The notes below the pieces were generated by a model that was not told the origin of the DNA, did no database searches, and saw nothing but the letters and a program-made list of their open reading frames with translations. Source: Nitrospirota bacterium (GTDB lineage Bacteria > Nitrospirota > UBA9217). From it: a stretch of 64,000 nucleotides of DNA. Below, one piece after another: positions 1,565 through 21,524 of the stretch. Within the stretch, counting starts at the first letter, position 1. Each line of letters begins with the position of its first letter. The position numbers were made by a program, and so were the translations under genes. The DNA lies in the NCBI GenBank assembly GCA_963818475.1, contig CAWFSF010000006.1:2048001-2112000 (forward strand), written 5' to 3'.

Positions 1565-1576
1565 GCTCGCTCCCTC

Positions 1577-2404: not shown

Positions 2405-2407
2405 GAT

Positions 2408-2832
2408 TTAACCTCCTCCTTCTCCTCGGCTGGATATGGCAGTCCCAGCAATACGGCTTGACCGACATATAGTTGTGGCATTCGTCGCAGAACTTCTTCT
2501 TGTTGGAATGGCACGTCATGCATCCGTTCTGAAGGCTCATGTTGAATCGTTTATGGCTCGCATTGCTCGATATATCCGCGATTGTCGTCGCGGACCACCG
2601 AATCCCGCCAGTTGTTCAGAAGCTGCATGTGCTCGGTCCGCATGAACTCCTTGGACTCCACGCACTCCTTCTTGCCGTTCAGTTTGCGACCCATTCCTGG
2701 ATCGCCGGAGTGTCCGTCTTCGGCTCAGGCTTCGCATTCACCTTCCCGATGTTGAAATAGAACGGGAAAGCCGCAAATGCCACGAAAGACGACGAGCCCG
2801 ATGAATATTTTTCCGCCGTCATAGAGTTTCAT
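2408..2832 (-). CDS. dsrJ: DsrJ, triheme cytochrome c (frameshifted)
   Basis: Manual translation gives MKLYDGGKIFIG..., MRTEHMQLLNNWRDSVVR and three CxxCH motifs (CMTCH, CDECH, CWDCH). Confidence 0.85.
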
Positions 2833-4457
2833 TAGGCTTTTTCCTCCTTCACTTGGACTGACGGAAGCGGTTCGCCGCGCAGATCGGTCGTTCTTTCCTT
2901 CTCGCCCGTCATGATCAGGGCGTTTGCCACGAGTTCATGGAGACCGCAGACACCCACACCGGGCACCCAGTATTCCATCAGGGCCTTGAGCGTTGCGCGG
3001 TCAATGGCGCAGACGTTGCCGAGCATATTCACGCCGTGGTGCTCGTGCACGAACTTGACCGCGTTCGCCCGGGGGAATCCGCCCTTCATCCGGAGATCCA
3101 TGTCTTCCGAGGCGTTCAGGCCGGTGCCGCTGCCGCAGCAGAAGGTCTTTTCGCGGATGGTGTCCTCGGGCATCTCGATGAAAGTTATTGCACCACGCTC
3201 TTGAGCACGTAGCGGGGCTCCTCGAGCAGGCCCATGCCGCGGGCAGTGTTACAGGAGTCGTGCCAGGTGACGTTGCAGGTGATCGTTCCGCTTCGGATCG
3301 AGCTTCAGCTTGTTGTTCTTGATCAGGTCGGCCGTGAATTCCGCGACGTGGACCATCTTCATCGATTTCGCGTTCTCGAACACCGTGCCCGGTGATCGGG
3401 GATTTCGGGACTTCGAGGAAATCGGCCGGACCGTTCCAGGTGTCCATGTACTGGGAGAGCACCCGCCACATGTGGCCGCACTCTCCGCCGAGGATCCATT
3501 TCACGCCGAGACGCTTGGCCTCGGCGTAGATCTTGGAATTGAGCCGTTTGCCCATCTCGTTCGAGGTGAAGAACCCGAAGTTGCCGCCCTCTGAAGCATA
3601 GGTGCTCCAGGTATAGTCGAGCCCCAGCTCCTCGAACAGCATCATGTAGCCCATGGCCGTGTAGGTGCCCGGGATCGGCGAAGAGGTCGCCCGAGGGCGT
3701 CACGAACAGGATCTCGGCGCCCTTGCGGTTGAAGGTGGGTTTGATCCTTTTGCCGGTGATGGTCTCGATATCGTCCAGCATATATTCGAGGTTGCCGACG
3801 ATCGTGTGGGGCTCGAGACCCAGGTGGTTGCCCTTCATGTAGCAGTTCGAGACCGGCCCCGCGATCCACTCGATGTTCAGACCGAGCAGATTGAGAAGCT
3901 CGCGGCCGATGATCGTGATCTCCGCCTGGTCGATGCCGTAGGGGCAGAAGACCGAGCAGCGGCGGCACTCGGTGCACTGGTAGAAGTAGTACCACCACTC
4001 CTTCAGCACATCGAGCGTCAGTTCGCGGGCTCCCGCCATCTTGCCGAAGATCTTGCCGGCCAGGGTGTATTCTTTTCGGTAGACCGAACGGATGCAGCTC
4101 GGCCCTGAGCACCGGCATGTTCTTGGGGTCGCCGGTGCCGATGAAGAAATGGCACTTGTCCGCGCAGGCGCCGCAGCGCACGCAGATGTCCATGAACAGC
4201 CGGAAGGACCGGTACTTTTCGAGGCGCTCCGCGATCCCGTCGAGCAGGATCTGCTTCCAGTTCTCGGGCAGTTTCCAGTCCGCGTCCGCCGGCCGCCAGT
4301 CCCGGGGGTTCGGGAAGCCGACGATCTCAAGGCTTTTCGGCTTCGAGCCATGGCAGAACATGCCCTCTTTGAACACCACGGGCGTATCCATCCAGCCCGT
4401 CTTCGGCGGCGTGTAATCTATCTTTGACAGTTCTTCTGGTTTCGGAAGTTTCGCCAT
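2832..4457 (-). CDS. dsrK: DsrK, HdrD-like Fe-S/CCG subunit (frameshifted)
   Basis: Motifs CVRCGACADKCHFF, CTECRRCSVFCPYGID, GGECGHMWR, WHDSC and FCCGSG across ORFs 3642-4457, 3359-4351, 3001-3654 and 2832-3173. Confidence 0.93.
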
Positions 4458-4459
4458 GA

Positions 4460-5464
4460 TTACTCCTTTTCTACCGGCAGGCCGGCGTCTTTCATTTTGT
4501 CCCTGAAATCATTCTCGTACTCTTCATAGGTATGAACATGGACGGGATAGTTCCAGGGATTGATGTGCCTCTTCTAGCGGCTGTTGTTCGCCAGGTTGCG
4601 GGTCGGGCTCATGAAGACACCGGCCATGTGCACCAGCTTGCTGAAGGGGAAATAGGCGAACAGCGTGCAGATGAGGAACAGATGGATGTAGAAGATCGGG
4701 CCGATTGCCCGCCGCGGGGGTTATCGGGCTGAAGCTGACCAGCGCTCATGGCCAGCATCTTCACGCTCACGATGTCTGTTTTGTGAAAGTATCGCATCAG
4801 GACGCCGGTGATGCCGATGCCGAGGATCAGGAAGAGCGGGAAGTAATCGGCGATAAGGGATATGTAGCGGACCTGCGGTAGTGCCGATCCTTCTGATGAA
4901 TAGATAGGTCACGGCGGCCAGGAGGACCAGATCGGTCATATACAGGAGCGGTGTGCCGATCTGGAGAAAGCTGTCCAGCCCCTCAACGATCTGGACCGGG
5001 AACGGCAGCGTCTCGGTGAAGAACCGAAGATGCCTGATCAAGATGATCAAGAAGGAGTAGTGAAACGCCAAGCCCGCCAGCCCAGAGCCACTTTGCTTCG
5101 CCGTAGGCAAGTCTGGTTGTCTTCCTCCAGTTCTGCGTTTTCAGGTTCCGGAAAAGCGAACGGAAGAAAAAGACTTCGAGCGCCATCCTGCCGAGCACAC
5201 CAAGCATGGTGGAAGGGTTTTCCAGTTTGCTCTGCTTGATCCAGGGAAGCGATTTCTGCTGTCCGCAGGTCGTCGGGATGCGGAACGGCACCGGAGAACT
5301 TCCCCATTTCAGAATACGGACGATCATGAAAATGATGAACGTGGCAACCGCTGCATAGGGAATGACCACTCCGAAGAGAAATGCATATTCTGCCATCGCC
5401 ACTCCCGCATAGGCAACCAGTACAAGCAGCAAGTACTGCGATGAAAGATAGTAATGACTTTCAT
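4460..5464 (-). CDS. dsrM: DsrM, NarI-like membrane cytochrome b (frameshifted)
   Basis: PVPFRIPTTCGQQKSLPW, FHYSFLIILIRHLRFF, YFPFSKLVHMAGVFMSPTRNLANN. Confidence 0.9.
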
Positions 5465-5519
5465 TTCGTTACCTCTTTTCGTTTAGGTTAACCGCGTTCG
5501 CCTGCAGAGAACGATAAAG

Positions 5520-6039
5520 CTACTCCTGAAACTCGGTGATAATTTTGGCCTGCTGGAGCAGCCTGAAGGTCGCTCGCCCGGCTTCTTTGGCCTTGATGTC
5601 GTAAATTCCTTCGCGACAGTGCATGTAGAGATCGAAGGCAAAAAGAGCAAGATCGTCGACGGCAGATTCCAAGTGCCACCAGTTCCTCGCAAAGCTTCCG
5701 GTCCTGCAGCATCTCGGTTCCCAGCGCAGCGCGCACGATATTCTTGAGCTGGAAGATGAACGCGACGCGCCTGCGCCGGAGTAAAATTCTGCACCGCGCG
5801 GATCCTGATCATGCTGTCAAGAAAAGACGAAACCGTATCCGGAAGCATGCCCTCCAGCAAGAGCATCGAACAGGGCCTCAACGCCTTCGGCATAGTGTAT
5901 AGCCCACCGGGTTGGCGAACTGGGCATCCTGCTTCCGGAGAGAACTGCGCGTGCCTTCCGGATAGGTCTCGACCAACGCCTCGAACCATTGTTTAACGAT
6001 CGCGGACTTCTTTTCCTGAAGAATATTCTTAAGGCTCAT
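5520..6039 (-). CDS. dsrT: DsrT (RsbRD_N-like) (frameshifted)
   Basis: MSLKNILQEKKSAIVKQWFEALVETYP...QFANPVG, IRIRAVQNFTPAQA, AFDLYMHCRE; immediately upstream of dsrM. Confidence 0.85.
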
Positions 6040-6075
6040 TGCATTCACCTTCCCGGCTGCAGGTCGGGTCCGTGA

Positions 6076-6490
6076 CTAGAAGAACAGCAGGTGCTTCACC
6101 GAATCCATTTCCTTCTGGATCTCTGCAAAGGAAACAAATTTCGTCTTCGAGGTCGGCGCCCATATCTTCGGCATTGGTGATCATCTGGTCTTCCTTCAGG
6201 CCGAGCCGCTCCATGTCTTCTTTGCAGACCCAGACAGGAAGATCGATCATCAGGCAGCTCTTGATATGGTTTTCCGTGCTGGTCACACCATAGACCTTCA
6301 TCGCCTGCTGGTCCTTTACTGCGTTCAGCACACCGTCACCCACAAAGACGATGGTCGGGACCACGGAGTCGCCGTCATCCATGTAGATCTCCGCGGTCTG
6401 GCTTGCAATGGCATGGGTGAGCGCAAGACGGGGATTCTCGCTCTTATACGGCGGCCTTTGCACAACGAACAATAAATTTACGGCACCCAT
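6076..6490 (-). CDS. dsrF: DsrF/DsrE-family sulfur relay protein (C-terminal frameshift)
   Basis: LLFVVQRPPY, VFVGDGV, VWVCKEDMERLGL; true end VKHLLFF-stop at 6076. Confidence 0.65.
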
Positions 6491-6850
6491 TTACTCACCT
6501 CCGATATGAAGCAGCCTGTCGGTCTTGACGGTCTTTGCCAGGTACCAGTCCATGCTGGCACGCTTCATGCCCTCGGGCACGTCTTCCTTGTGATAGCCGC
6601 GGGCCTCGGCACATGCCTCGCACACGGTGATCTCCATGCCCTTGCCCATCAGTTCCTTCATGAGCTTTTCATTATGCGAGTAATCTTTGAACGCCTTCTG
6701 TCCCTTTTTGGCCATCATCACGGCATTACCGGAAAGCCACATATTCACCTTGTGGCCCTTGGCAATTCCGGCCTCGGCAAGCTTGAATGCAAAATCAAGC
6801 GACATCGAGCCGACCAGGGACGGGAACACTCCCAATGTTAATTCTCCCAT
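6491..6850 (-). CDS. dsrE: DsrE/TusD-family sulfurtransferase
   Basis: GHKVNMWLSGNAV and VCEACAEARG carry the DsrE-type active-site Cys. Confidence 0.75.
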   Translation of the reverse strand: MGELTLGVFPSLVGSMSLDFAFKLAEAGIAKGHKVNMWLSGNAVMMAKKGQKAFKDYSHNEKLMKELMGKGMEITVCEACAEARGYHKEDVPEGMKRASMDWYLAKTVKTDRLLHIGGE

Positions 6851-6945
6851 GCTATCCTCCTTAACGTTCTATGATCGGACGAGCGACAGCAAGAATGCTT
6901 TGCATGCCTGCGATCAACGCAATCGTCCTTCATGAATTTAGAGTC

Positions 6946-7247
6946 CTACAACCAGGCAGTCTTCTCATAGTCGTTCATAATGAGATCGACGATATCGCCG
7001 TAGCTGATGACCTTCACCTTGGAGTTCACCTGTCGCCGCTGTAAAACCTCTGGTGGTCAGATCGTCCGCCAAAACGTAAAAGCTTGCGCCAGCCTTGGAC
7101 AGCACCGGCGAATCCTTGCCGTTCTTCTTTGACCACTGCATGATAGATGCCATTGCCCACGAGGATCACGCCCATTTTGTCGGCCTTCATTCTCTCGAAG
7201 GTGTCTTCGGTCCTTCTCCAGTCGCTTAAAAATACTGCTAGTTTCAT
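6946..7247 (-). CDS. dsrH: DsrH/TusB-family protein (frameshifted)
   Basis: Joined translation GVILVGNGIYHA...FYVLADDLTTRGF...VKVISYGDIVDLIMNDYEKTAWL is a typical DsrH/TusB pattern. Confidence 0.75.
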
Positions 7248-7278
7248 CGTTTCACCTCCCTGAGAGCACTGTTTTAAT

Positions 7279-7314
7279 AAAAAAACAGGGGATTAGTTAT
7301 TCAACTATCCCCTT
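7279..7314 (-). terminator. Intrinsic terminator between fdx and dsrH
   Basis: Minus strand AGGGGATAGTTGAATAACTAATCCCCT hairpin followed by a T run. Confidence 0.6.
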
Positions 7315-7342
7315 TGTTCGTGATGCATGTTCTCTACCGTCA

Positions 7343-7526
7343 TTATAGTCTCTTGACCGTGATGGCCTGCTGCGGACAGTTCTCAACGCAGGTCAGGCAG
7401 TTGATGCACTCGGACATGTTCACCGGGTCCGCCTTGCCGCCTTCGACCTTGAACACCGACTGGGGACATACATTGGCGCAGGTGCCGTCACCATCGCACT
7501 TGCCTTATCAATTGTTACCATATCAT
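7343..7526 (-). CDS. fdx: Ferredoxin paralog with CxxDxxC first cluster motif (frameshifted)
   Basis: Manual translation MVTID.GKCDGDGTCANVCPQSVFKVEGGKADPVNMSECINCLTCVENCPQQAITV; RBS GAGGAGG. Confidence 0.85.
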
Positions 7527-7634
7527 GGTGATCTGTTCCTCCTCATCAGGATTAGCCTCATCAACCGCCTGCATTCTTCCGACATCTCCCGCACAACGCC
7601 TGCTCTGCCGACAGCCATACTCCCATCAGCAGGA

Positions 7635-7679
7635 AGAGCGCGATATGCTGAGGGAACTCCCTCAGCATACCACCGCTCT
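7635..7679. other. Stem-loop downstream of dsrC
   Basis: Perfect inverted repeat ATGCTGAGGG-AACT-CCCTCAGCAT (7645-7668) flanked by AGAGCG/CGCTCT; no T tract. Confidence 0.55.
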
Positions 7680-7718
7680 GGTATCTGACAGATCAGGGGA
7701 ACGCCGCAACGAAAGGAA

Positions 7719-8054
7719 CTATACGCAGCCGGTCGGCTTCGGAAGGCCGGCGATCTTGCAGGCCTGCTTTGCCGGTCCGCCCGGATAGAGCTCATAGAGG
7801 TACTTGGTGTTGCCCTTCTCGGGCCCAAGCTTCTTGCCGATCTCTTTCACGAGGATCTTGATCATCGGCGCGATCTGATACTGCTTGTAGTAGTCGCGCA
7901 GGAAGTTCACCACTTCCCAGTGCTGCTCGCTCATATCGATGCCTTCGACCTGTGCGAAATAGTTCGCTACATCCATGTTCCAGTCGTCCAGATTCGCCAA
8001 AAATCCGTCTTCATCCACTTCGATCGTCTTGCCCTTTACGTCTATCGTTGCCAT
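7719..8054 (-). CDS. dsrC: DsrC, sulfite reductase co-substrate
   Basis: DEDGFL, HWEVVNFLRDYY; C-terminal CKIAGLPKPTGCV has both conserved Cys. Confidence 0.97.
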   Translation of the reverse strand: MATIDVKGKTIEVDEDGFLANLDDWNMDVANYFAQVEGIDMSEQHWEVVNFLRDYYKQYQIAPMIKILVKEIGKKLGPEKGNTKYLYELYPGGPAKQACKIAGLPKPTGCV

Positions 8055-8149
8055 TGTTCATTCCCCTTTCGTTAATGTAATCGGGCGCCACGCGCCACTC
8101 GGTTGTTGATATGTTCTGTGTAGATACGCTGTCCGATTGATCCGGCCAG

Positions 8150-8514
8150 TTACTTTTTTATCACCTTGAGGATATACAGCCTGCCATGCCCGATCCATCA
8201 CGCTCTTGGGGACTCCGGAAGACCGATGGGTCCCCAGATCATAACTCAGGATCTCGTCTTCGTAATCTTCGCCCGGATACCAGCGTCTGTCAGGTCTCGG
8301 CCCAGTTCCTCCGCCGCCAGCTGCAAGGCTCTGCATCATCACTTCTCCAACATTCTTGCTCGTGGGATCCACAATGATAAAGAGCATTGCAACCGTTACA
8401 GCGGCCGCTGAGCACAGTCTCTGTCGCGCTTAAACGCTTTTCTGTTGGCCGCGGCAGTGCTCCTTTGCAAAACGGGCACGTTGGTTCAATGCTTTCCCGT
8501 CTTCCCGTTCTCAA
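8150..8514 (-). CDS. Uncharacterised Zn-ribbon-like protein (frameshifted)
   Basis: Joined translation EPTCPFCKGALPRP...GRCNGCNALYIVDPTSKNVGEVMMQ...DYEDEILSYDLGTHRS...GRLYILKVIKK has CxxC...CxxC; RBS AGGCAGG. Confidence 0.7.
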
Positions 8515-8529
8515 AATATGACCTGCCTT

Positions 8530-9938
8530 CTATGCGGGCTGCTTATGCTTACGGTATTCCAACGCCTTTCTGACCATGGCCTTCGCCCACTGGGGTGTAC
8601 CGAGTGCATGAAGATGGGTATACGCCGCCAGCACATTTTTATAGACCAGGCCGTCACCCGTTCCGTTGATGCCGCCGCCTCGCGTTACATGATATGCCAT
8701 TGGCGACAGGCTGGTCAAGATTCACGATCCTCGAATAGTGAAATTCGTGGCCTCTTATGATCACGCCCTTGTCAAGGAAACGTGTTCTCGGCAACCGTTT
8801 CGAGTACCGTATAGCCATGCGCCTGCGGTTTTTTTTCAAGAACAAAATCAGCCGGCAGCACCGCGGTCATGGGATAGATCTCGTTTCGCCGACCGTGAGG
8901 CTCCTGCCAAGATAGATCAGGCCACCGCACTCTGCATAGATGGGCAATCCCTTCTCAGCCGCAGCCTTTACCGACCGGCAGAAACTTTCGTTCGCTGCCA
9001 GCTCTGCGGCCTGCGTCTCGGGAAATCCGCCGCCAATATAGAGGGCGTCGAGATCGGGAAGTGACCGCATCGGTCAATGCGTTGATCCGAACTGAATCCG
9101 GGCACCTTGCTGCTCGAGCGCTTCCAGATTATCAGGGTAGTAGAACTGAAAAGCAGAATCCCGAATGACCCCGATGACCGGCTGATCAGTCTTCCGGTCG
9201 CTTCCGGCAGGGTGAAACTTCTGCCGGAGCATCGATCGCCTGTGATGCTGCTTGCAATATCCCAAAGCGTGCCCAGGTCCAGATATCGCTCGGCAACTGC
9301 CGCTGATGCCTGTATGGCCTGCTCCACGTCGGGATGCTCTTGAAAGGGCGTGAGCCCCATATGCCGCTCGGGGAATTCGCCCTTCCGCTGCCGGGGCACA
9401 GCACCGACAACCGGAATACCGCTGCTCTGTTCAATGGCCTTCCGGATCACCGTTTCATGCCTGCCCGGTGAAACATTGTTTAGAATCACGCCCCCGATCT
9501 CAACCTCGGGATCATAGTCTCGGCAGCCGAGAACCACTGCAGCGACCGTACTCGATGCCTTCGTGCAATCAACGATCAACACAACCGGCGTTCGCAAGCA
9601 ATGTGGAGAGACGTGCCGTACTGTACGTTCCAGACTCATCGACACCGTCGATAGAGACCACGATTGCCTTCGATAACTGCTGCGTCGCACCCGGCGGCAT
9701 GACCGACGAAAGACCGAACGAGCGGTTCACGATCCATCATAAAAAGGTCGAGATTGTAGCACGGCCTTCCTGCTGCAGCTCCGAGCCACCCGGCATCGAT
9801 GAAATCCGGGCCTTTTTTAAATACCGCAATGCTTCTGCCCAGCTTCCGCCAGGCAGCAACAATGCCGAGCGTCAGAAGGTCGTTTTACCCGACCCTCCGC
9901 GCGTGGCTGAAATTACCAGCCTCGGCATCAATCGGCAT
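8530..9938 (-). CDS. dsrN: DsrN, siroheme a-amidase (cobyrinate a,c-diamide synthase family; frameshifted)
   Basis: [66 protein letters not shown]; follows dsrD. Confidence 0.9.
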
Positions 9939-10175
9939 TACGATTGCGGATTAGCCGAACCTTCCGTGTGCGGGATCTCAACGGCTGTTCCGCCAAAATA
10001 CGAATACACCAGCTTGCCGCCGTCGATCAGCACGCGAAGCGCCGCTTTGATCTTCAGCCTGGGTCGCACCTTCCGCCTCCATGGCATTGCTGATGTCCTT
10101 GGGCTTCAGCTTCTTTTTTCCCTGACTTTTTTCTACCAGGGCGTATACTTTTTTTTGCAGTTCTTCAGCGTCCAT
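9938..10175 (-). CDS. dsrD: DsrD, dissimilatory sulfite reductase activator (frameshifted)
   Basis: MDAEELQKKVYALVEKSQGKKKLKPKD...IKAALRVLIDGGKLVYSYFGG is a small winged-helix type protein directly after dsrB. Confidence 0.8.
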
Positions 10176-10213
10176 ATGCTCACCCCTCCGAATTAGTTTG
10201 TTCACGTCATCAT

Positions 10214-10243
10214 AAAACCGGCCCCGGTCCGCGACCGGGGCCG
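10214..10243 (-). terminator. GC-rich hairpin with short T tract between dsrB and dsrD
   Basis: Minus strand CGGCCCCGGTCGCGGACCGGGGCCGG followed by TTTT. Confidence 0.5.
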
Positions 10244-10260
10244 TGCATGACATTATACGA

Positions 10261-11335
10261 CTATTCCCACTTGAAGGTCGGGGTCATTCTGAACGTCTCA
10301 CGTGCAAAGGTGAAATCGTCGATATGCTGATAGGTGAACGGTATACCGGTCATCTTGAAGAAGCGCTCCCAGCCGATCCGCTCGATCCACTCGTCCAAAG
10401 CGCTCATGCTTCTTGGCATCCTTGGCGTAGACCTCTACCAGGTGCTTCACGGCCTTGACGACTTCCGGCCAGCGCGGCGGATTGTTCGGAAGGAACGGGA
10501 TGGCCAGCCGCGACATGCGTGCCGGACCGCGTGCGTTCGAAACCTTGCCGCCCACATAGATGGAGATACCGTCGCCAGTGCGCATCGGCGAGCGGGAGGG
10601 ACGGGCACATGGTGTAGCAGTTGCCGCAGTACATGCAGCGCTCTTCCTTGATCTTCACGGACTTCGCCGCCGGATTCGGGCGATAGCGCCGGTCGGGCAG
10701 GAAGCGATGGTCGTGGGGATCTCGCACTGGTTCGCGATGGTCGCCTCGTTCACCTTCGGCGGCTTGCGGTGAATACCGAGGATGGCGATGTCGGAGCAGT
10801 GCACCGCACCGCACATGTTGAGGCAGCAGGCAAGCGCGATGCGGACGCGTGCCGGCAGGGTCTTGGTGGTGAAGTATTCATGCAGCTCATCCATGACGGC
10901 CTTCACAACACCCGAGGCGTCCGTTGCCGGTGTGTGGCAGTGGATCCAGCCCTGGGTATGCACTACGTTGCTGATACCGTAGCCGATGCCGCCGACCAGA
11001 TGACCACGCTTCTTGAGCTCGGCCTGGAGCGGATCGACCTGTGCTTTGTCCGGGAAGAACTCGATGTTGTTCCGCGTCGTGAAACGAAGATGGCCGCCGG
11101 AGAACTTGTCGGCAAGTTCGCATATCTCGCGGATAAAATCAGAGCTCACGAGACGGGGCGATGCCATGCGCACGGTATACAGCTCGTCGCCGGTCTCGGA
11201 AACGTGCTTCATGGTGCCGTGGTTGATCTGTTCGTGATACTTCCATTTCCCGTAGTTCTTCGCGATCACGGGCGGCAGGAATTTGCTAAAGTGAGGAGCT
11301 CCAATATCTGTTATTCTCTTAGGTTTATCAGCCAT
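10261..11335 (-). CDS. dsrB: Dissimilatory sulfite reductase beta subunit (frameshifted)
   Basis: [73 protein letters not shown]. Confidence 0.97.
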
Positions 11336-11355
11336 TTTAAGTTATCCTCCTTGAG

Positions 11356-12536
11356 TTATTTCACGTCGTCTGCTGACCAGAATACGTACGGGTTCGATCT
11401 TGGGGCTTTCACCATCTGCGGCACGGGCGGCAGACCAGTTGATTCGAGCATGGATCTCATGCCAAGACGGTCAACAAGTTCGCCGATACGTTCGCGGTTC
11501 TTGCCATGGTCATCCCACCATTCCCAGAGCTTGCGGATAAGGTCCTCAAGGTTGTCGTACGGTGCTTCAAGCTTCATGAAAGGAACGATGACCCAGCTCA
11601 TGAGGGCACCGGTCACGATCGGGGCTTTGCCGCCGAGCATGATGGTTGCACCTTTTTCTTTGCCCGGGCGAAGCGCCTTCGGCATCTGATTGATGCAGTG
11701 CATGCAGCGGTTGCAATCCTTGTCATTGATCTTGAGCACAGCAGCCGTCGAAGCTCATGCACTTGGTCGGGCACATTTCGACGATTTCGGTCTTGATATC
11801 CATTTTTGAAGCATAGTTCTTTACTTCTGCTGCATCGATACGGATGGTGTCTCTCCAGGTGCCGATGATGGACATGTCAGCGCGGGCGATCGGCAGCGAC
11901 GCAGTCGTTGGCGCAGCCGGAAACCTTGATCTTGAACTTGTAGGGGAACGCGGGACGATGGAGCTCATCCTGGAACTTGTGGGTGAGCGTATCGCAGATC
12001 TCCATCGAGTCGATGTTCGCGAACTCGCAGCGGGACATACCTGCGCAGCAGCTCGGGGTGCGGAGGCAGGAGCCGGAACCGCCGAGATCCCAGCCCTTTG
12101 CCGTTGTTTCAGCAAAGATGGACTCAAGCTTGTCGGTCTGCGTACCGAGGAGGACCAGGTCGCCCGTGGAGCCGTGGAAGTTGGTCAGGCCGCTGCCGTA
12201 TTTGTCCCAGATGTCCATGAGATCGCGAAGAGCGCTCGTTGTATAGTAGAAACCGGCAGGCTGGTTGATACGGACGGTGTGGAAATGAGCGACACCCGGA
12301 TATTCTTCGGGAAGATCGCAGTAACGGCCGATAACGCCGCCGCCGTAACCAAGGACGCCGACGATGCCGCCGTGCTTCCAGTGGGTCACCTTGTCACGAT
12401 AGGAACGCTCAAGGATATTGAGCAGGTCTTGCGCGGTGTTGCTCTTCTTTGCGGACTTCTTGATCTCTTTTACGAAACTCGGCCATGCGCCTTTTTCCAG
12501 TTCATCAAGCATCGGTGTCTTTGCATCTTTGCTCAT
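11356..12536 (-). CDS. dsrA: Dissimilatory sulfite reductase alpha subunit (frameshifted)
   Basis: [72 protein letters not shown]. Confidence 0.97.
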
Positions 12537-14091: not shown

Positions 14092-14122
14092 AAAAAAAGG
14101 AGAGGCCTTTGAGACCTCTCCT
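14092..14122 (-). terminator. Intrinsic terminator after cooS
   Basis: Minus strand AGGAGAGGTCTCAAAGGCCTCTCC hairpin followed by T7. Confidence 0.75.
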
Positions 14123-14140: not shown

Positions 14141-16120
14141 TTATACGACTTCGCCATGCGGCGTAGCAAAGGTCCCGCGGCGTGCGGCCATATCCATGAG
14201 CACGCGTTCCGTGCCAAATGCACCCTGTTCGTATTTGCGGATCTTCAGCTTTTCTCTCGCCGTGTCGATGAGCTTCAGCGCGAGTTCAAGGATCTTGCCA
14301 GGGTCTTCCTCGAAATAGAAGCCTGCCGTCACCATATCCCACCACTTGTTTTCCATGATATCGGTAAGCGTTTTGCTTGCGCTGACCGGCGATCCGGCGC
14401 CAAAGATGATCGGTACACCGGATGCTGCAAAGTAGGTGCCGATGGCGATGGCCTTTTCGCTCATCCACTCCGGACCGATACCGACCGCAGGAAGACCGCC
14501 GATGTCGTCGCCGAGACCGCCCGCTTCAGCGATATGAGATGCGATGGTCAGGATACGCGAGTTGTCAACGCAGGAACCGAGATGAAGCACCGGAGGAATG
14601 CCGATGGCCTCACAGACCTCACGAAGACCGGGGCCGGCGTTTTCAAGAGCCATCTCAGGCGTCATGTAGCCTGCCTTGGCCGAAGCATGGGCCGAGCATC
14701 CGGTCTGGACCACGAGCACGTCGTTCTTAATGAGCTCGCGGGTAAGAAAATTATGAATGCTGTCCTGGCTAATGCGGGGGTTGTTGCACCCCGCCAGGCC
14801 GACAACGCCGCGGATACGGCCCGCAATGATGGCATCGTTCAGCGGCCGATAGGAACCCCGGTACTGTCCGCCCTGCATGTATTCAATATATTCATCAGAG
14901 AACCCGGCGATCATGTCCGCGGGCTTGACGTTGGCGTGAGCAACATCTTCCTTTTTGCGGTTCGGGAAATTATCGATCGCGAGACGAACGACTTGTTTGG
15001 CCTGATCCAGGGCATGGTGCTCATCATATTCAATATGCACCGCATCTTTCATTTTGCCCTTATTCGTCGTCGTAACGATCTTGGTGTGGTATTTTTTTGA
15101 AAGCTCACCGATTGCAGGCATGATGCACTGCACGTCCACCACCATGGCCTCTACCATACCGGTTATGATGCCGAGTTCCTGCTGCAGGAATCCGCCGGCG
15201 GTGTCGATGCCGTGGCGGACAAGGATCTCGTTCGCGGTGCAGCACATGCCCACGAGGTTAACCCCTTTGGCACCCTTGGACTTTGCATATGCGGTGATCT
15301 CCGGGTCCTCCACCGCAACAACCAGCATTTCGGCGAACGACGGTTCGTGACCGTGAACCACGAGGTTCACATGGTCTTCCTTGAACACATCAAGGCTGGC
15401 CCGGGCCTTGAGCGGTCTGGGAGTGCCGAAGAGGATGTCCGAAATATCCGTCCCCATCATGGAACCGCCCCACCCGTCCGCGAGCGACGCGCGCATGGCG
15501 CCGAGCATGATATTGTTCACTTCCTGGTCCACACCCATGGTCGTGCGGTGCATCATTTCCACGACTTCACGGTCGATCGCGCGCGGCGCGATGCCGAGCT
15601 TCTTCCAGATCTCCTGACGCTTTTTGGGCGCCCGGGACAGGTAGGCGAGCTCTCCCCGCTGCTGACCGAACTGTTCGAGAAATTTCAGCGCCACCTTCTC
15701 GGCAACTTCGTTCACCTGTTTACCCTCTACATCGATGCCAAGGTAACCGGCAACGCGGTTCAGTTTGCGAACGTCCTTGATCTTGAAATCCTTGGCTTCA
15801 CCACGCGCTACGGCAAGAAGCGTGTTCGCCAGGTCTCTGGCGTGATCGGAATGCGCCGCAGTGCCCGCGGCGACCATACGGGCAAAATTCCTCGCGGTCA
15901 CGACCGGCAGCGATGCGCCGCATACACCCATGGCCTCGTCTTCCTTGCCAACCAACCGGCAGGGTCCCATGTGGCACATCTTGCAACAGGCGCCTTGGTG
16001 ACCGATGGGGCATGGTTTCAGCTTTTCAGCCCGTTCAAATGAAGTCTCATACTTTTTCAGTCCGGCAACTTTGAGCAGTGCCTGGGCACCGGGATCAACG
16101 GATTTTAGTTCTTCTTTCAT
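14141..16120 (-). CDS. cooS: Anaerobic Ni-containing carbon monoxide dehydrogenase
   Basis: D/B-cluster motif CPIGHQGACCKMCHMGPC, HSDH, and C-cluster ligands in HGHEP, GMCCT, DVQC, GCNN, GCSA, SCVD; WMSEKA. Confidence 0.96.
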   Translation of the reverse strand: MKEELKSVDPGAQALLKVAGLKKYETSFERAEKLKPCPIGHQGACCKMCHMGPCRLVGKEDEAMGVCGASLPVVTARNFARMVAAGTAAHSDHARDLANTLLAVARGEAKDFKIKDVRKLNRVAGYLGIDVEGKQVNEVAEKVALKFLEQFGQQRGELAYLSRAPKKRQEIWKKLGIAPRAIDREVVEMMHRTTMGVDQEVNNIMLGAMRASLADGWGGSMMGTDISDILFGTPRPLKARASLDVFKEDHVNLVVHGHEPSFAEMLVVAVEDPEITAYAKSKGAKGVNLVGMCCTANEILVRHGIDTAGGFLQQELGIITGMVEAMVVDVQCIMPAIGELSKKYHTKIVTTTNKGKMKDAVHIEYDEHHALDQAKQVVRLAIDNFPNRKKEDVAHANVKPADMIAGFSDEYIEYMQGGQYRGSYRPLNDAIIAGRIRGVVGLAGCNNPRISQDSIHNFLTRELIKNDVLVVQTGCSAHASAKAGYMTPEMALENAGPGLREVCEAIGIPPVLHLGSCVDNSRILTIASHIAEAGGLGDDIGGLPAVGIGPEWMSEKAIAIGTYFAASGVPIIFGAGSPVSASKTLTDIMENKWWDMVTAGFYFEEDPGKILELALKLIDTAREKLKIRKYEQGAFGTERVLMDMAARRGTFATPHGEVV

Positions 16121-16246
16121 GAGTGTGGTAAACTCCTTTCACATGGAGGGAACGGTCCCTCGTACAAAGCTTATGTATTATACGAAAATACACTTAAAAA
16201 ACCAGACTAAGTTCGTCTACAACGGTTCCGCGCCTGTGCCATGCAT

Positions 16247-18427
16247 TTATTTCTGCAGGACCGGCTGCTTGACTTCCATGACCGTGACCACGGCCGATCT
16301 GGAGAGCAGACCCTGGTTCATGGCCAGAAGAAGTATTGTCGTGGATATGCCATAGGGCTTTCCTGCTGCTGCTTTGACAGGCATTAACGCTCCAGCTGCG
16401 ATCTTGCCGGTTTTTGCCTTCTTTACGAGCGAAGAAACGTCCTTTGCACTGATCGCTTTGGTCTTACTCACCGCCGCCGATATTACTTCGGCGATCTCAG
16501 CGCCGTCCTTCGCATCACCGGCAGCAGACTGCGCCTGGGCAAAAACCTTCTGCTGGCCATAGGTGGTGATGATCGTGCCTTGTTTTTCGTAAAGGGCGGT
16601 CATTGGAAGCACCAGATCGGCCTTCTCGGTAAGTGCGTTCGCATGGCTCGCCTGAACGATCAGCGTGCCTGCCTTAAAATCACTATCCGGCACGTTGCCG
16701 GCAACGAACAGTACACCCATTCCGGACTTCATTGAGCCGTAGTTCTTTCCTGTTTTCTTGATCGCGGAAAAGCCCGGGCCCAGATCGGAAAGGCAACCCA
16801 TCTGCATGACACCAAGCGCATTCGCCTCGAGCATAAGCGGCATGACGCCGGCATTCTTCAGATTTGCGAGGTTCAGGGCCTGGAGCGATGCATCTTCGCT
16901 GGCCGAAATACCGGTGCCGAAGATGACCACGGGCTGCTTGGCTGCTGCATAGGCTTTTGCTGCCTCAACGATCTTTTCAACAGGTACGCCGCTGACCGAG
17001 GAGGCTTCGTCCGCAGCCACAAGATCTTTTTTGAGTGCTTCAACTTCTTTCGGTTTGGTGGTCAGACCCTCGGCCAGGGCCGCAGACATAACACCGGCCA
17101 GAAGCGCCGTATCCGTCCCCGGCTTCAGTTCAAGATGAATAGCATTCACATGGGTGGTAAGCCCGATCTTATCGGGGTTCACAACGATGATCTTTGCTCC
17201 TGCCTGCGCCCTGCGGCGGATCATGACGTCGATCTCCTGGAGCGACTGGCCTTTCTGCGACGGATCAGCGCCGATCACCACAACACAGTCGGCGGCTGCA
17301 AGGTCAGCTTTGGAGGCAATGGCAATGCCGTTATCACCGTAGACGGCACGCAGCGCAGCGATCGCGCCGCCCGCGTAGGCCGCTGCCGGCGTGCTGATGT
17401 TGGGGCTCCCGACAACATCGCGGGCCAGCAGCTCGAGCGCTGCAGCCTCTTCATTGGTAAGTGAACCTGCAACGATGAATCCGGCGCTGTCTCCGGCCTT
17501 CTTGAGCGCATCAGCCGCGATCTTCGATGCATCTTCCCAGGTTGTGGGAACCAGTTTGTTGCCCTGTTTTTTCATCGGCGCGGTGATCCGGTTCACTGAC
17601 GCAAGCGCATCGAAGCCGAAACGGCCGATGGCGCAGATATAACCATTGCTTTCTTTGGTGTTCACTTTAACGATACGGCCGTCCTTCTTGCTCACCACGA
17701 CGCTGCAGCCCGAAGCGCAGGCAGTGCAGACCGATTCGGACTTATCGAGGTCCCACTCCCGGCCATGCTGCCAGCGGTCGCGTTCCATGATCGTGTTCAC
17801 CGGGCAGGCTTCGACACAGGAACCGCAGAAGGTGCAGCCCGACTCATGGAGCGGTTTGTCCTGGGCCGTCGATACCTTGGTCGTGATGCCGCGGCCCATG
17901 AAATCAAGCACGTTCGTACCCTGCTCCTTGCAGACCCGTACGCACCGACCGCACAGGATGCAGTAGTTGTTGTCGATCGTGATGAAGGGGCTTTTATCGT
18001 TCAGCTCATAATTAAAACTCTTGCGGCCGAAGGATGACTCCCGGATGCCGAGATCGGCAGCATAGCGCTGCAGGTCGCAGTCGCCGGCCTTGGGGCAGGT
18101 CATGCAATCGAGGGGATGGAAGGAAAGCACCAGGTCGGTCACGAACTTCCTGATTTCCTCGACCTTGGGGGTCTTGGTCTGGACCTTCATGCCTTCCTTG
18201 GTCCTGGTCGTGCAGCCGGTGACGGGCGTCCTCATGCCCTCGATCTCGACCATGCACATACGACAGGCGCCCACGCCGCGCAGTTCCTTGATATGGCACA
18301 GGTTCGGGATGTGCACCCCTACGGTCGCGGCCGCATCAACAAGGGTCATACCCTCGGGAACAGAAACGGCCTTGCCGTCAAATTCCATATTTATCATCTT
18401 CATCATAGCATCCTCCGTGTAAAGCAA
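16247..18427 (-). CDS. NuoG/HydA-N-like Fe-S subunit with degenerate molybdopterin-oxidoreductase domain
   Basis: [2Fe-2S] motif IPNLC...GACRMC...GC, HPLDCMTCPKAGDC, CILCGRCVRVC, CTFCGSCVEACP, CTACASGC...ICAIG. No H-cluster motifs and no evident Mo-ligand Cys/Sec. The true start is probably a downstream ATG near 18406. Confidence 0.85.
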   Translation of the reverse strand: MLYTEDAMMKMINMEFDGKAVSVPEGMTLVDAAATVGVHIPNLCHIKELRGVGACRMCMVEIEGMRTPVTGCTTRTKEGMKVQTKTPKVEEIRKFVTDLVLSFHPLDCMTCPKAGDCDLQRYAADLGIRESSFGRKSFNYELNDKSPFITIDNNYCILCGRCVRVCKEQGTNVLDFMGRGITTKVSTAQDKPLHESGCTFCGSCVEACPVNTIMERDRWQHGREWDLDKSESVCTACASGCSVVVSKKDGRIVKVNTKESNGYICAIGRFGFDALASVNRITAPMKKQGNKLVPTTWEDASKIAADALKKAGDSAGFIVAGSLTNEEAAALELLARDVVGSPNISTPAAAYAGGAIAALRAVYGDNGIAIASKADLAAADCVVVIGADPSQKGQSLQEIDVMIRRRAQAGAKIIVVNPDKIGLTTHVNAIHLELKPGTDTALLAGVMSAALAEGLTTKPKEVEALKKDLVAADEASSVSGVPVEKIVEAAKAYAAAKQPVVIFGTGISASEDASLQALNLANLKNAGVMPLMLEANALGVMQMGCLSDLGPGFSAIKKTGKNYGSMKSGMGVLFVAGNVPDSDFKAGTLIVQASHANALTEKADLVLPMTALYEKQGTIITTYGQQKVFAQAQSAAGDAKDGAEIAEVISAAVSKTKAISAKDVSSLVKKAKTGKIAAGALMPVKAAAGKPYGISTTILLLAMNQGLLSRSAVVTVMEVKQPVLQK

Positions 18428-18560
18428 ATTCCAAAATTCAAATTACAAATCCCAAATACTATCCAAATCTCAAAATCCAATGACTGGTCTAAACGTTTGG
18501 GGCTTGATACTTGGTCATTGGTGCTTATTTGTAATTTGGTGCTTGGGATTTGGTGCTTGT
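18423..18560. repeat. Intergenic palindromic element of degenerate heptamer repeats
   Basis: AAATTCC/AAATTAC/AAATCCC/AAATCTC units followed by complementary TTTGGTG/CTTGGGA/ATTGGTG units; related copy at 26275-26392. Confidence 0.6.
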
Positions 18561-18561
18561 T

Positions 18562-19168
18562 TTAAACAGGGCATGTCCCGACCACATGCCGTACCGGCTT
18601 CGCGGGCTCTTCCTCGACCGTCGGGGCGGCTTCGTAAATATAGACCGCACCCTCGGGACAGACCTTTATACATTCGCCGCAATGGGTGCAGCGTTTCTGC
18701 CTGATGCGGTAGGGCGTGAAACCCGTTTTATAGGGTTGTTTCTTCTGGCCCTCAATGGCGAAGTCCTTGCACACTTCACGGCACTTGTCGCACATGGTGC
18801 AGCGGTTCGCATCGATGTTGTAGGAAACGAGGGCGGCGCATTCATTGATCGTACAGACCCCCTGGACATGACGTTCAAGCAAGCGCGGCATGGTCGTTCA
18901 GAAAGGCGGCCAGAATGTCGGCGTGGTCTTTGCCCTTCTTGCACATGCCGCCGTCCTTCACATCAACAGCGATCCGTTTGAGCTGTGCGATATGTTTTGT
19001 CACGCCCTTGCCGGCCTGGATCGTCTCGAAGATCTTTATGGCGTCGTAGATGCCGAGTTTGCAGGGATGGCATTTGGAGCACATGCCGTCCTTGGAGTCG
19101 TCGTTGTAGAATTTCTCAAGCTTGATTCTCGTCAGGTTGACCGGGCACTTACTTTCTTGCTGCGACAT
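18562..19168 (-). CDS. Stand-alone HydB/NuoF C-terminal-like Fe-S protein (frameshift near 18890)
   Basis: [10 protein letters not shown]...MCSKCHPCKLG...GMCKKG...EHVQGVCTINEC, then CTMCDKCREVC and CTHCGECIKVCP. Confidence 0.8.
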
Positions 19169-21050
19169 GGGCCCCTCCTTTTTCCACGACAATGGCCCTA
19201 GTGGGACAGACGGTGTAGCAGGCCTTGCACTTGGTGCAGTAGTCCTGGTCGATGAAGAACTTGTCCCGCAGTCTCGACCACCGCGTCGAAAGCGCAGGCA
19301 GTCTTGCACATGCCGCAGAGGATGCAGTGTTCGGGAAGGATGCGGAAGGTCCCGAGTCCCTGACAGCGTTTGGCCCGGCAGAACTTGTCGTTCACATGCT
19401 CTTCATATTCTTCGCGGAAATACTTGATCGTGGAAAGCACCGGGTTCGGGGCGCTGTTGCCGAGGCCGCAGAGCGATCCGGCCACGACCATCTTGCCCAT
19501 TTTCTCAAGCAGCTCGATATCGCCTTTTTCACCCTGTCCTGACGTGATTTTGTCCAGCAGTTCGTACATCTGCCACGTGCCGATCCTGCAGGGCGGGCAC
19601 TTGCCGCAGGACTCGCTCTTGGTAAAGGACAGGAAGTACTTGGCCACGTCCACCATGCAGTCGTCCTCGTCCAGCACCACCATGCCGCCGGAGCCCATGA
19701 TCGAGCCCACCGTCGCCAGGGTGTCGAAGTCGACCTGCATGTCGAGGAACTGGGCAGGGATGCAGCCGCCCGACGGTCCGCCGGTCTGGACCGCCTTGAA
19801 CTGCCTTGTCCGGGTTCAGCATGCCGCCGCCGATGTCGAAGATGATCTCGCGGAGCGTGATGCCCATGGGGACCTCGATGAGGCCCGTGTTCTTGATCTT
19901 GCCGGTCAGGGCGAAGACCTTGGTGCCCTTCGATTTCTCGGTGCCGATCGAGGTATAGTAGTCAAGCCCCTTGGTGAAGATCGTCGGGATGTTGGCAAAG
20001 GTCTCGACGTTGTTCAGGTTCGTGGGCATGTTCCAGAGGCCGCCGGCCGCTTCGGAGAGCCGCGGAGGACGGGGACGCGGCATGCCGCGTTCGCCTTCGA
20101 TGGAGGCAACAAGAGCTGTTGATTCGCCGCAGACAAAGGCGCCTGCGCCTTCCTTGATCTCCATGGTCGAAATCGAGGCCGCTGCCCAGGATGTTCTTGC
20201 CCAGAAGCCCCATCGCCTCGGCCTGTTTGATGGCAATGCCGAGGTTCTTCACGGCAAGGGGATACTCGTGCCGCACGTAGATATAACCGAATTGCGCGCC
20301 GATAGCGAAGGCATTGATGATCATGCCTTCCATGACGGAATGGGGATCGCCTTCCATGAGCGCGCGGTCCATGAACGCGCCCGGATCGCCTTCGTCGCCA
20401 TTGCAGACCACGGCCTTGATCTTGGCGCCCGATTTCTTGGTATGCTCCCACTTGAGCCCTGCCGGGAAGCCTGCGCCACCGCGACCGCGCACGCCCGACT
20501 TCTTGACGATGTCGATGACCTCGTCGGGCTTCATCTCGGTCAGCACCTTGGCCAGGCCGGCATAACCATCCTCGCGGATGGAGTCGTAGATGTTGCAAGG
20601 GTCGACGATGCCGTTCTTATGAAGCGCCAGGCGTTTCTGTTTTTTGTAGAACGGGATGTCCTGCATGGCCACATTGGGCTCAGCAAGCGGGACCTCGCGG
20701 TAGAGCTGCTTTCGGTACGGCACGCCCTGCAGTACAGATCCGGAGAACAGGGCAGGAATATCAGCCACCTTCACCTTCTGATAAAAGGTCTCCTGCGGTT
20801 CCTGAACAACGACCGGGCCGCGCTGACAGAACCCCTGGCAGCCGGTCTTGACGATCTCGAGGTTCTCACCCTTTGCCGCGGCTTCTTCCTCGAACTTCTT
20901 GACAAGCTTGTTCGAACCCGAGGCCTGGCATGCCGTGCCGCAGCAGACCCGGACCCGGTGAGTGTCCTTCTCTTTACGCTCGTTCTGCAGTTTGGTGCGA
21001 AGGGCCGCGAGCTCGGCAACGCTGTTTAGCCGCTTAAACGTGAGTTCCAT
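19149..21050 (-). CDS. HydB/NuoF-like FMN/NAD(P)-binding subunit (frameshifted)
   Basis: N-terminal CCGTAC...[65 protein letters not shown], and C-terminal [11 protein letters not shown] and [12 protein letters not shown]. Confidence 0.92.
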
Positions 21051-21524
21051 GTTCACTCCTCGCCATCGCAATGATATCATCCACCATCTTCGGCGTAAGC
21101 TCGCCGTAGAGGTCCTGGTCATTCACCGTGGCTACCGGTGCCAAGGCGCAGCAGCCCACGCAGCCCACGGTCTCAAGCGTGACCGAACGGTCAGCCGTGG
21201 TCTCGCCTTGCTTGATGCCCAGCTTGGCTTCCATCTCGGTCAGCACGTCCTTGGCGCCCCGCACATGGCACGCCGTACCCATGCAGACCTTGACGATGTT
21301 CTTGCCCCGCGGTTTGAAATGGAAGTGTTTGTAGAACGAAGCCACGCCATACACGTTGTTAATCGAAAGAGACATGCGGTCCGCAGATCATCGTCATCGC
21401 ATCCTCGGGCAGATAGCCCACCTTCTCCTGCACCCGCTGCAGCACAGCAATGAGCATGCCTCGCTGGCCTTGTGCATCGTCGAGGACAGTATTAACCTTC
21501 TTTCAGATCTTCTTGCTCGAGCAC
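21034..21524 (-). CDS. HydC/NuoE-like [2Fe-2S] subunit (frameshifted)
   Basis: LIAVLQRVQEKVGYLPE, VYGVASFY, VCMGTACHV, GCVGCCALAP; GTG start after RBS GGGAGG. Confidence 0.9.

What the first reader, a model, noticed from the sequence alone, without database searches (positions are those of the whole stretch)
14141..21524. Ni-CODH encoded behind a catalytically orphan HydABC-type module: candidate electron-bifurcating CO:NAD(P)+/ferredoxin complex
Seen: co-oriented hydC-like, hydB-like, extra Fe-S subunit, nuoG-like and cooS, with a terminator after cooS. There are no acsB, cooF or cooC genes alongside. The NuoG-like subunit keeps all Fe-S motifs but has no H-cluster or Mo ligand. HydB has AFM, GGPSG, VDFD and C-terminal 2x[4Fe-4S], features associated with bifurcating HydB. 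It has CGES instead of CGEE at the residue that discriminates NADH from NADPH in NuoF. Inference: CooS supplies the catalytic site of a HydABC-type bifurcating complex, possibly NADP-linked, next to the dsr operon. Caveat: a TATAAT near 16180 suggests cooS may also have its own promoter.
Basis: partly seen in the sequence, partly recalled or inferred. Interest (0 to 1): 0.7.

Follow-up and report, generated by a model that had tools for sequence, protein, structure and literature searches.

The report
Detached CODH carrying NADP-type Bfu module
Five genes encode a nickel CO dehydrogenase next to a flavin/iron-sulfur electron-splitting module that has no active site of its own; gene order and family trees show this is the CO dehydrogenase moved out of the acetyl-CoA synthase operon, and the module likely links that carbon-fixing enzyme to NADP(H) and ferredoxin, a predicted but untested enzyme type.

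Summary
hydC, hydB, an extra Fe-S gene, a nuoG-like gene lacking a Mo/H-cluster ligand, and cooS lie co-oriented before a terminator. Six single-base frameshifts in hydC, hydB and the Fe-S gene are probably assembly errors.

The reading needs correcting: this is probably not a stand-alone CO oxidiser. This CooS nests among Nitrospirota AcsA proteins encoded right behind acsB, usually followed by this module. This genome's acs operon lacks cooS, and cooS has a conserved promoter-like site (32 of 40 loci).

The module still follows cooS. CooS lies behind it in 30 of 30 informative loci, and 13 of 13 genomes with acsB but no cooS lack it. HydB has all Bfu motifs, and 48 of 51 orthologues carry Ser/Ala plus Arg, as in NADP-specific T. 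kivui HydB.

Best model: a CODH/ACS whose CODH exchanges electrons with NADP(H) and ferredoxin through a BfuABC module. Binding and bifurcation are untested. Codh-Bfu is already predicted (Firmicutes only); this is a variant. The scan reported the pairing twice before on other genomes.

The parts
21034..21524 (-). hydC/nuoE-like (BfuC), [2Fe-2S] thioredoxin-like; two single-base frameshifts (about 21500 and 21385), probably assembly errors
   Evidence: PF01257 and NuoE models; indels against relatives; GTG start
19149..21050 (-). hydB/nuoF-like (BfuB): N-terminal [2Fe-2S], FMN/NAD(P) domain, SLBB, B1 [4Fe-4S], B2 site with His, C-terminal 2x[4Fe-4S]; NADP-type CGES...RPPR; three frameshifts (about 20165, 19803, 19273); start overlaps the hydC stop
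18562..19168 (-). Extra Fe-S subunit: free-standing copy of the C-terminal third of BfuB (B1-like cluster, B2/Zn-site Cys/His, 2x[4Fe-4S]); one frameshift (about 18880); start overlaps the hydB stop
   Evidence: PF10589 + Fer4; best PDB hits are HydB C-termini; 15 Cys and 1 His invariant in 51 orthologues
18410..18561 (-). Intergenic long imperfect hairpin of heptad-like repeats, absent from the two closest relatives aligned
   Evidence: sequence; fold z = -2.0, 9 of 200 shuffles as good
16247..18406 (-). nuoG/hydA-like (BfuA) with clusters A1-A5 and a degenerate molybdopterin-type domain lacking the Mo/W ligand; no H-cluster
16177..16214 (-). Conserved promoter-like element for cooS: AACTT..TGTAG-T-tract, then TATAAT 62 nt before the start
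   Evidence: TATAAT in 32 of 40 upstream regions; shuffles mean 2.6, max 8; transcription not shown
14141..16120 (-). cooS, Ni-CO dehydrogenase with intact B-, C- and D-cluster ligands; orthologue of Nitrospirota AcsA
   Evidence: TIGR01702 above cut-off; ligand motifs; tree
14098..14122 (-). Intrinsic-terminator-like hairpin with T tail

Best explanation
This CooS is the orthologue of the Nitrospirota acetyl-CoA-synthase partner AcsA, moved out of the acs operon with its flavin/Fe-S module; it likely still pairs with the AcsB encoded on another contig, and the module likely couples it to NADP(H) and ferredoxin by electron bifurcation. Shown: gene content, orthology, linkage, co-loss and motifs. 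Inferred: CooS-AcsB assembly (about 0.85); the module as direct electron partner of CooS (about 0.7); bifurcation (about 0.65); NADP rather than NAD (about 0.75). Predicted electron path: C-cluster to B/D clusters, then the extra Fe-S subunit and/or the A3 arm of the NuoG-like subunit, then A2, A1, B1 and FMN of HydB. There a hydride would go to NADP+ and two electrons to ferredoxin via C1/B2/B3/B4. In acetyl-CoA cleavage or low-CO oxidation, NADP+ reduction would help pay for ferredoxin reduction. In CO2 fixation, NADPH plus ferredoxin (mean about -440 mV) would replace ferredoxin alone, possible only because ACS removes the CO. The internal promoter would let cooS also be expressed apart from the module, to match acsB.
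For: (1) Ancestral context: 37 of 41 more distant CooS loci (58-67% identity) have acsB directly upstream, and 31 of 41 have hydC downstream. 36 of 39 close loci have the module upstream instead, and none has acsB in the locus. (2) Trees: the window's CooS clade sits among acsB-adjacent CooS, far from the genome's second CooS (SH-aLRT only, midpoint root); its HydB nests among acs-operon HydBs, apart from Fdh- and Nuo-linked HydBs (FastTree). (3) The genome has one acsB, in a cooC-acsE-D-C-B-nuoE-nuoF-fdh-fhs operon with no cooS; 14 of 14 family acsB loci also lack cooS behind acsB. (4) 17 of 25 cooS-positive family genomes have only one CooS hit, the module-linked one, and all 25 have acsB. 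(5) The module depends on cooS: 30 of 30 informative metagenome loci. All 41 genomes with the Fe-S gene have acsB and cooS (40 scored, 1 fragment at a contig end), and 0 of 13 genomes with acsB but no cooS have it, three of them single-contig. In G044 the module again stays with cooS away from acsB, and in G106 it lies between acsC and acsB. (6) Bfu and bifurcation motifs per PMC9304861 and PMC7311640 are present. (7) NADP: 48 of 51 CooS-linked HydBs have CGE[S/A]...RPPR, as T. kivui HydB does (S320, R340; NADP-specific, PMC8578170; Arg340 contacts the nucleotide, PMC10021017). Five other solved BfuB have CGEE...PP[F/Y]. nfnAB-like genes adjoin the cluster in 12 of 80 loci.
Against: No biochemical or transcript evidence was obtained. 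CooS does not need the module: 16 of 56 other cooS-positive genomes lack the Fe-S gene, and L029 and L040 keep cooS and nfnAB without it. The separate promoter-like site weakens co-expression with the module. This genome has a second CooS that could in principle serve AcsB. Three HydB copies in duplicated loci have the NAD-type residues. The NADP inference rests on one characterised enzyme. CO oxidation (-520 mV) can reduce ferredoxin without bifurcation (PMC9304861, Table 1). Genomes are related, so counts are not independent, and the locus and genome sets overlap.
Confidence: 0.5

Rival explanations
1. CooS partners AcsB, but the module does not bind it. It is a co-inherited soluble NADP(H):ferredoxin oxidoreductase that serves CODH through free ferredoxin.
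For: cooS has its own conserved promoter-like site. The module is lost in several lineages that keep cooS and acsB. No CooF-type adaptor is in the cluster. nfnAB-like genes are frequent neighbours.
Against: A Bfu module needs a third substrate. Keeping the NuoG-like A1-A5 wire and an extra Fe-S subunit makes most sense if a catalytic partner docks. The module stays with cooS, not acsB, in separate rearrangements and is lost with it.
Confidence: 0.2
2. The module is wired to CooS but does not bifurcate: a plain NADP(H)-linked diaphorase, as in NAD-dependent formate dehydrogenases.
For: CO oxidation is low-potential enough to need no bifurcation (PMC9304861). With ACS pulling CO, NADPH alone may suffice (overall about -320 mV, from a recalled -38 kJ/mol for the ACS step).
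Against: HydB keeps the B2-B5 cluster motifs and the residues (A/M, F, GGPSG) that mark bifurcating subunits.
Confidence: 0.13
3. One reading: a stand-alone Codh-Bfu that oxidises external CO for sulfate respiration, independent of ACS.
For: No acsB nearby; conserved module-cooS order; the second CooS could serve AcsB in this genome.
Against: AcsA orthology. In 17 of 25 family genomes this is the only CooS hit beside an acsB operon without cooS. The module was never seen without acsB (41 of 41). dsr adjacency in only 2 of 39 close loci.
Confidence: 0.12
4. The module is a decaying pseudogene cluster in this genome.
For: Six frameshifts in hydC, hydB and the Fe-S gene.
Against: The same one-base insertions break dsrA, dsrB, glgC and acsB. 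Protein identity to intact relatives is 90-98% over most segments. Other runs' contigs lack three of the extra bases.
Confidence: 0.05

Closest known systems
Codh-Bfu / CodhABCSF, predicted only (Schut et al. 2022, PMC9304861; Feng et al. 2025, PMC12318220)
   Same: Ni-CODH encoded with a BfuABC module whose A subunit has no catalytic site; proposed CO : NAD(P)+ + ferredoxin coupling.
   Different: Theirs: 4 sequences, Firmicutes only, Type 2 (BfuA lacks A3 and A5), a CooF adaptor, CODH genes between bfuB and bfuA, NAD assumed, no ACS link stated in the passages read. Here: Nitrospirota, BfuA with A1-A5, no CooF but a BfuB-C-terminus duplicate, NADP-type residues, and the CODH is the AcsA orthologue.
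NiFe-HydABCSL of Acetomicrobium mobile (Type 3 Bfu; PDB 7t2r)
   Same: Best PDB match of HydB. Its HydA is also a roughly 690-residue NuoG-like subunit with A1-A5 and no catalytic site (PMC12318220).
   Different: Its third substrate is H2 at a NiFe site in subunits S and L; NAD-type CGEE...RPPF.
NADP-specific bifurcating [FeFe]-hydrogenase HydABC of Thermoanaerobacter kivui (PDB 8a6t; PMC8578170, PMC10021017)
   Same: HydB shares Ser320 and Arg340 equivalents.
   Different: Its HydA carries an H-cluster; no CODH.
Bacterial bifunctional CODH/ACS (Clostridium autoethanogenum 6ytt, Moorella thermoacetica 1mjg) and Wood-Ljungdahl clusters surveyed by Inoue et al. 2019 (PMC6344411)
   Same: CooS with full ligand set. 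Inoue et al. list NuoE/F/G-like COGs (1905, 1894, 1034) among genes associated with Wood-Ljungdahl CODHs.
   Different: Characterised enzymes use free ferredoxin (recalled; T. kivui value in PMC8578170) and acsA is clustered with acsB (PMC12827605). Here acsA is split from acsB family-wide and kept with the flavin module.

Membership tests
Ni-CODH (CooS) | TIGR01702 above cut-off; B-, C-, D-cluster ligands and catalytic His/Lys | tested here: met
   599.6 vs 478 bits; C37, C45; C46, C49, C54, C67; H258, C294, C332, C445, C475, C517; H90, H93, K556 present and invariant in 51 rows; ligand roles recalled from C. hydrogenoformans CODH-II
AcsA of bifunctional CODH/ACS | Orthology with acsB-adjacent CODHs | tested here: met
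   tree; 37 of 41 distant homologues directly behind acsB
AcsA of bifunctional CODH/ACS | Gene clustered with acsBCDE | tested here: not met
   acsB-E on contig C2 without cooS; this lowers formal membership by synteny, not the functional inference
AcsA of bifunctional CODH/ACS | Physical complex with AcsB and acetyl-CoA synthesis | not testable with these tools
   needs biochemistry
Bfu family (PMC9304861) | BfuB with FMN domain, SLBB, B1, N-terminal [2Fe-2S], C-terminal 2x[4Fe-4S]; BfuC [2Fe-2S] | tested here: met
   Pfam on the window fragments; motifs in intact orthologues
Bfu family (PMC9304861) | Conserved B2-site His and Cys | tested here: met
   [14 protein letters not shown] in the window and in orthologues
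Bifurcating beta subunits (PMC7311640) | A/E-x-M near the NADH site, Phe near FMN, GGPSG | tested here: met
   GAFMD, GAFVCGE, GGPSG
Bfu family (PMC9304861) | Strictly coupled reduction of NAD(P)+ and ferredoxin | not testable with these tools
   needs enzyme assay
Codh-Bfu as defined in PMC9304861 / PMC12318220 | Type 2 BfuA lacking clusters A3 and A5 | tested here: not met
   HxxxCxxCx5C and the fifth cluster motif are present
Codh-Bfu as defined in PMC9304861 / PMC12318220 | CooF subunit | tested here: not met
   no PF13247 hit in the cluster; the extra subunit is a BfuB C-terminal paralogue
Codh-Bfu as defined in PMC9304861 / PMC12318220 | BfuB in clade 49 | not tested
   reference clade sequences not fetched
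Fdh-Bfu / NAD-dependent formate dehydrogenase | Cys/Sec Mo/W ligand in the alpha subunit | tested here: not met
   NISTPAAAY aligned to NTDTCARVCHS; ligand motif absent in the CooS-linked orthologues where the site was located
Bifurcating [FeFe]-hydrogenase HydABC | H-cluster domain in HydA | tested here: not met
   hydrogenase models match only residues 1-270

The most novel reading that the evidence does not exclude
Anaerobic Nitrospirota use an uncharacterised electron-bifurcating CODH/ACS supercomplex. An NADP-specific BfuABC module docks on the CODH dimer through a free-standing duplicate of the BfuB C-terminus, so acetyl-CoA synthesis and cleavage are coupled directly to NADP(H) and ferredoxin. 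This would halve the ferredoxin cost of CO2 fixation and let ferredoxin be reduced during acetate oxidation.
Probability: 0.35. Interest if true: 0.75.

Novelty: new variant of a known kind. Interest (0 to 1): 0.5.

Why it matters
No CO-using Bfu enzyme had been purified as of PMC12318220 (2025), and characterised CODH/ACS enzymes use ferredoxin alone (recalled). A conserved, intact five-gene set in dozens of Nitrospirota genomes gives a concrete target for testing a bifurcating CODH. It bears on how Wood-Ljungdahl sulfur-cycling bacteria afford the low-potential CODH step in either direction. It also yields a two-residue predictor of NADP specificity in BfuB, and it warns that synteny-based rules would mislabel this AcsA as a monofunctional CooS.

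Tried and rejected
Complex prediction of the CooS N-terminal domain dimer (residues 1-240) with the extra Fe-S subunit gave no answer (score 0.10, mark 0.32); it is used neither for nor against binding. Sequencing runs: no run held half the words; the RNA runs were contigs of relatives, and neither covered bin 16088-16348, so they say nothing on co-transcription. The sigma-70 scan did not call the TATAAT at 16182, which has a weak -35. A profile of the cooS upstream element found no comparable site elsewhere in the genome (score 28.4 for itself, next 21.0), so co-regulation with the acs operon was not shown. A functional link to dsr was rejected. A paper on NuoF Glu183 and NADPH was not found, so that point is recalled only. 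Literature searches for this cluster returned no paper describing it; subscription journals are not covered. The Schut et al. supplement was searched as text only; its figures could not be seen.
Full report
Observation. The minus strand carries hydC (21524-21034), hydB (21050-19149), an extra Fe-S gene (19168-18562), a nuoG-like gene (18406-16247) and cooS (16120-14141), then a terminator-like hairpin. hydC/hydB and hydB/Fe-S overlap at their ends. CooS passes the curated CODH model and keeps all cluster ligands. The NuoG-like protein has five Fe-S motifs but no Mo/W ligand and no H-cluster domain. The extra subunit is a separate copy of the C-terminal third of HydB. Six one-base insertions break hydC, hydB and the Fe-S gene. 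Unrelated genes show the same defect and other runs' contigs lack three of the extra bases, so I read them as assembly errors. The closest named records are titled Nitrospirota.

The genome. It holds two cooS genes: this one and a 47% identical one at C2:799524 with no acs or module genes recognised around it. It holds one acsB, in the order cooC-acsE-acsD-acsC-acsB-nuoE-nuoF-fdh-fhs on C2, with no cooS.

Relatives. The scan returned the best 80 of 591 CooS loci. Of 39 close loci (at least 80% identity), 36 have the module directly upstream. Two have lost it and one has no upstream sequence; none has acsB and two have dsrA. Of 41 distant loci, 37 have acsB directly upstream and 31 have hydC downstream; where the locus is long enough the order is acsE-D-C-B-cooS-hydC-hydB-fes-nuoG*. 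In the one translated in full (L076) the NuoG-like protein also lacks the Mo ligand. The window's five genes are therefore the tail of the usual Nitrospirota acs cluster, detached and reordered. A CooS tree of 82 rows places the window's clade among acsB-adjacent proteins and far from the second CooS (quick method, no bootstrap, midpoint root). A HydB tree of 52 of 65 rows (close loci thinned) nests its HydB among acs-operon HydBs and apart from Fdh- and Nuo-linked ones. Fourteen of 14 family acsB loci fetched lack cooS behind acsB.

What the module depends on. Starting from the Fe-S gene, 30 of 30 metagenome loci with enough downstream sequence (of 80 returned) continue nuoG*-cooS. In 121 genomes of the phylum, 41 have the Fe-S gene, 57 cooS and 70 acsB (G000's broken Fe-S gene fell under the cut-off). 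All 41 have acsB. Forty have a cooS hit, and the last has a cooS fragment in front of hydC. None of 13 genomes with acsB but no cooS has the Fe-S gene; in four of them HydB and NuoG-like orthologues were also sought and not found. The reverse does not hold: 16 of 56 other cooS-positive genomes lack the Fe-S gene. In the family, 17 of 25 cooS-positive genomes have a single CooS hit, beside the module (16 on the same contig, 1 split at contig ends), and all have acsB elsewhere. These genomes are related, so the counts show a pattern and are not a statistical test.

Promoter. TATAAT lies 61-84 nt before cooS in 32 of 40 loci, against a shuffle mean of 2.6. It comes with a conserved AACTT..TGTAG element, and is kept in L029 and L040, which lack the module. 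cooS thus probably has its own start. Read-through from hydC is not excluded, since no terminator was called in that gap.

Cofactor. HydB meets the Bfu definition (PMC9304861; abstract, section 4 part 1, section 5 parts 1-2, section 6 part 1, passages and supplement text read) and the bifurcation markers of PMC7311640 (passages). T. kivui HydABC uses NADP+ and not NAD+ (PMC8578170, passages), and its Arg340 stabilises the nucleotide (PMC10021017, passages). PDB chain 8a6t_B, whose F205 and R340 match that numbering, reads CGES...RPPR, as the window does. Five other solved BfuB chains read CGEE...PP[F/Y]. Of 51 CooS-linked HydBs, 48 have S/A plus R. Ten of 14 Fdh/Nuo-linked ones have E plus F, and four did not match the pattern.

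Mechanism. Potentials from PMC9304861 Table 1 are CO -520, ferredoxin -500 and NADPH -380 mV. NADPH plus ferredoxin averages about -440 mV, too weak for free CO2 to CO. It would be enough if ACS removes the CO (about -320 mV overall, using a recalled -38 kJ/mol). In acetyl-CoA cleavage, splitting electrons between NADP+ and ferredoxin lowers the barrier to ferredoxin reduction. The direction used here is unknown. How the module docks is not shown.

Known systems. Codh-Bfu is predicted for 4 Firmicutes sequences and had not been purified (PMC9304861; PMC12318220, passages). This cluster fails two of its defining features (Type 2 BfuA, CooF), so it works like Codh-Bfu without being a member as defined. 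NuoEFG-like genes near Wood-Ljungdahl CODHs were noted in PMC6344411 (passages). PMC11033732 reports acsABCDE in anaerobic Nitrospirota classes (passages), and PMC12827605 treats unclustered AcsA homologues as outside the pathway (passages). Passages of PMC10689502 and bioRxiv 10.64898/2026.06.25.734504 added nothing. Searches found no paper on this cluster. The scan's own notes e1-5238659 and e1-2081353 reached similar readings on other genomes. My AcsA reading was logged before I saw them, and they are not counted as evidence.

Verdict. The feature is real and conserved, and it is a variant of a predicted enzyme type. The likely partner of this CooS is AcsB, and the module is its likely NADP(H)/ferredoxin gateway. 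Interest 0.5.

Noticed in passing
window 18410-18561: Inverted heptad-repeat hairpin between the Fe-S gene and the nuoG-like gene, absent from two close relatives; resembles the cassette arms in earlier finding e1-3317463.
   Followed up: partly
L052, L056, L057, L062, L066, L074, L101, L106 (hydB): Eight HydB orthologues are 761-780 aa; the two scanned carry a C-terminal CBS pair, which suggests adenylate-sensing control of the module.
   Followed up: partly
G063, G072, G077, G080, G089, G092, G095, G101, G109 (family f15); G002, G065, G075, G081: These genomes keep acsB but have no cooS hit; the four inspected keep acsBCDE. A CODH-less ACS, recalling Dehalococcoides (recalled).
   Followed up: partly
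L006:9894-10772 (G000 C2): The formate dehydrogenase behind acsB reads NVDHCARL then a stop, probably selenocysteine; it has its own NAD-type (CGEE) NuoEF module.
   Followed up: partly
L009 (G000 C6:2295000-2314999): Complex I operon with a HydBC-type input module, matching the predicted Nuo-Bfu of Nitrospirae in PMC9304861.
   Followed up: partly
L029:4578-11980: The module is missing between nfnAB-like genes and cooS; a TnpB gene and an unnamed ORF stand there.
   Followed up: partly
window 384-12536: dsrAB, dsrD, cobB-like, dsrC, dsrEFH-like and dsrMKJOP-like genes by inspection, many frameshifted; the direction of sulfur metabolism is unresolved.
   Followed up: no
L091, L092, L093, L102: The HydB behind acsB in these loci lacks the usual NADEGDPG and CGEE motifs, so it may have an altered nucleotide site.
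   Followed up: no
G006 C98 (L191): A second copy of the module ends at a contig end inside the nuoG-like gene; possibly a second strain in the bin.
   Followed up: partly
L045, L050, L088: cooS followed by hydC also occurs in records titled Desulfonatronospira and Ignavibacteriales, with acsB upstream in L045 and L088; the Fe-S gene was found in the two Desulfonatronospira genomes.
   Followed up: partly
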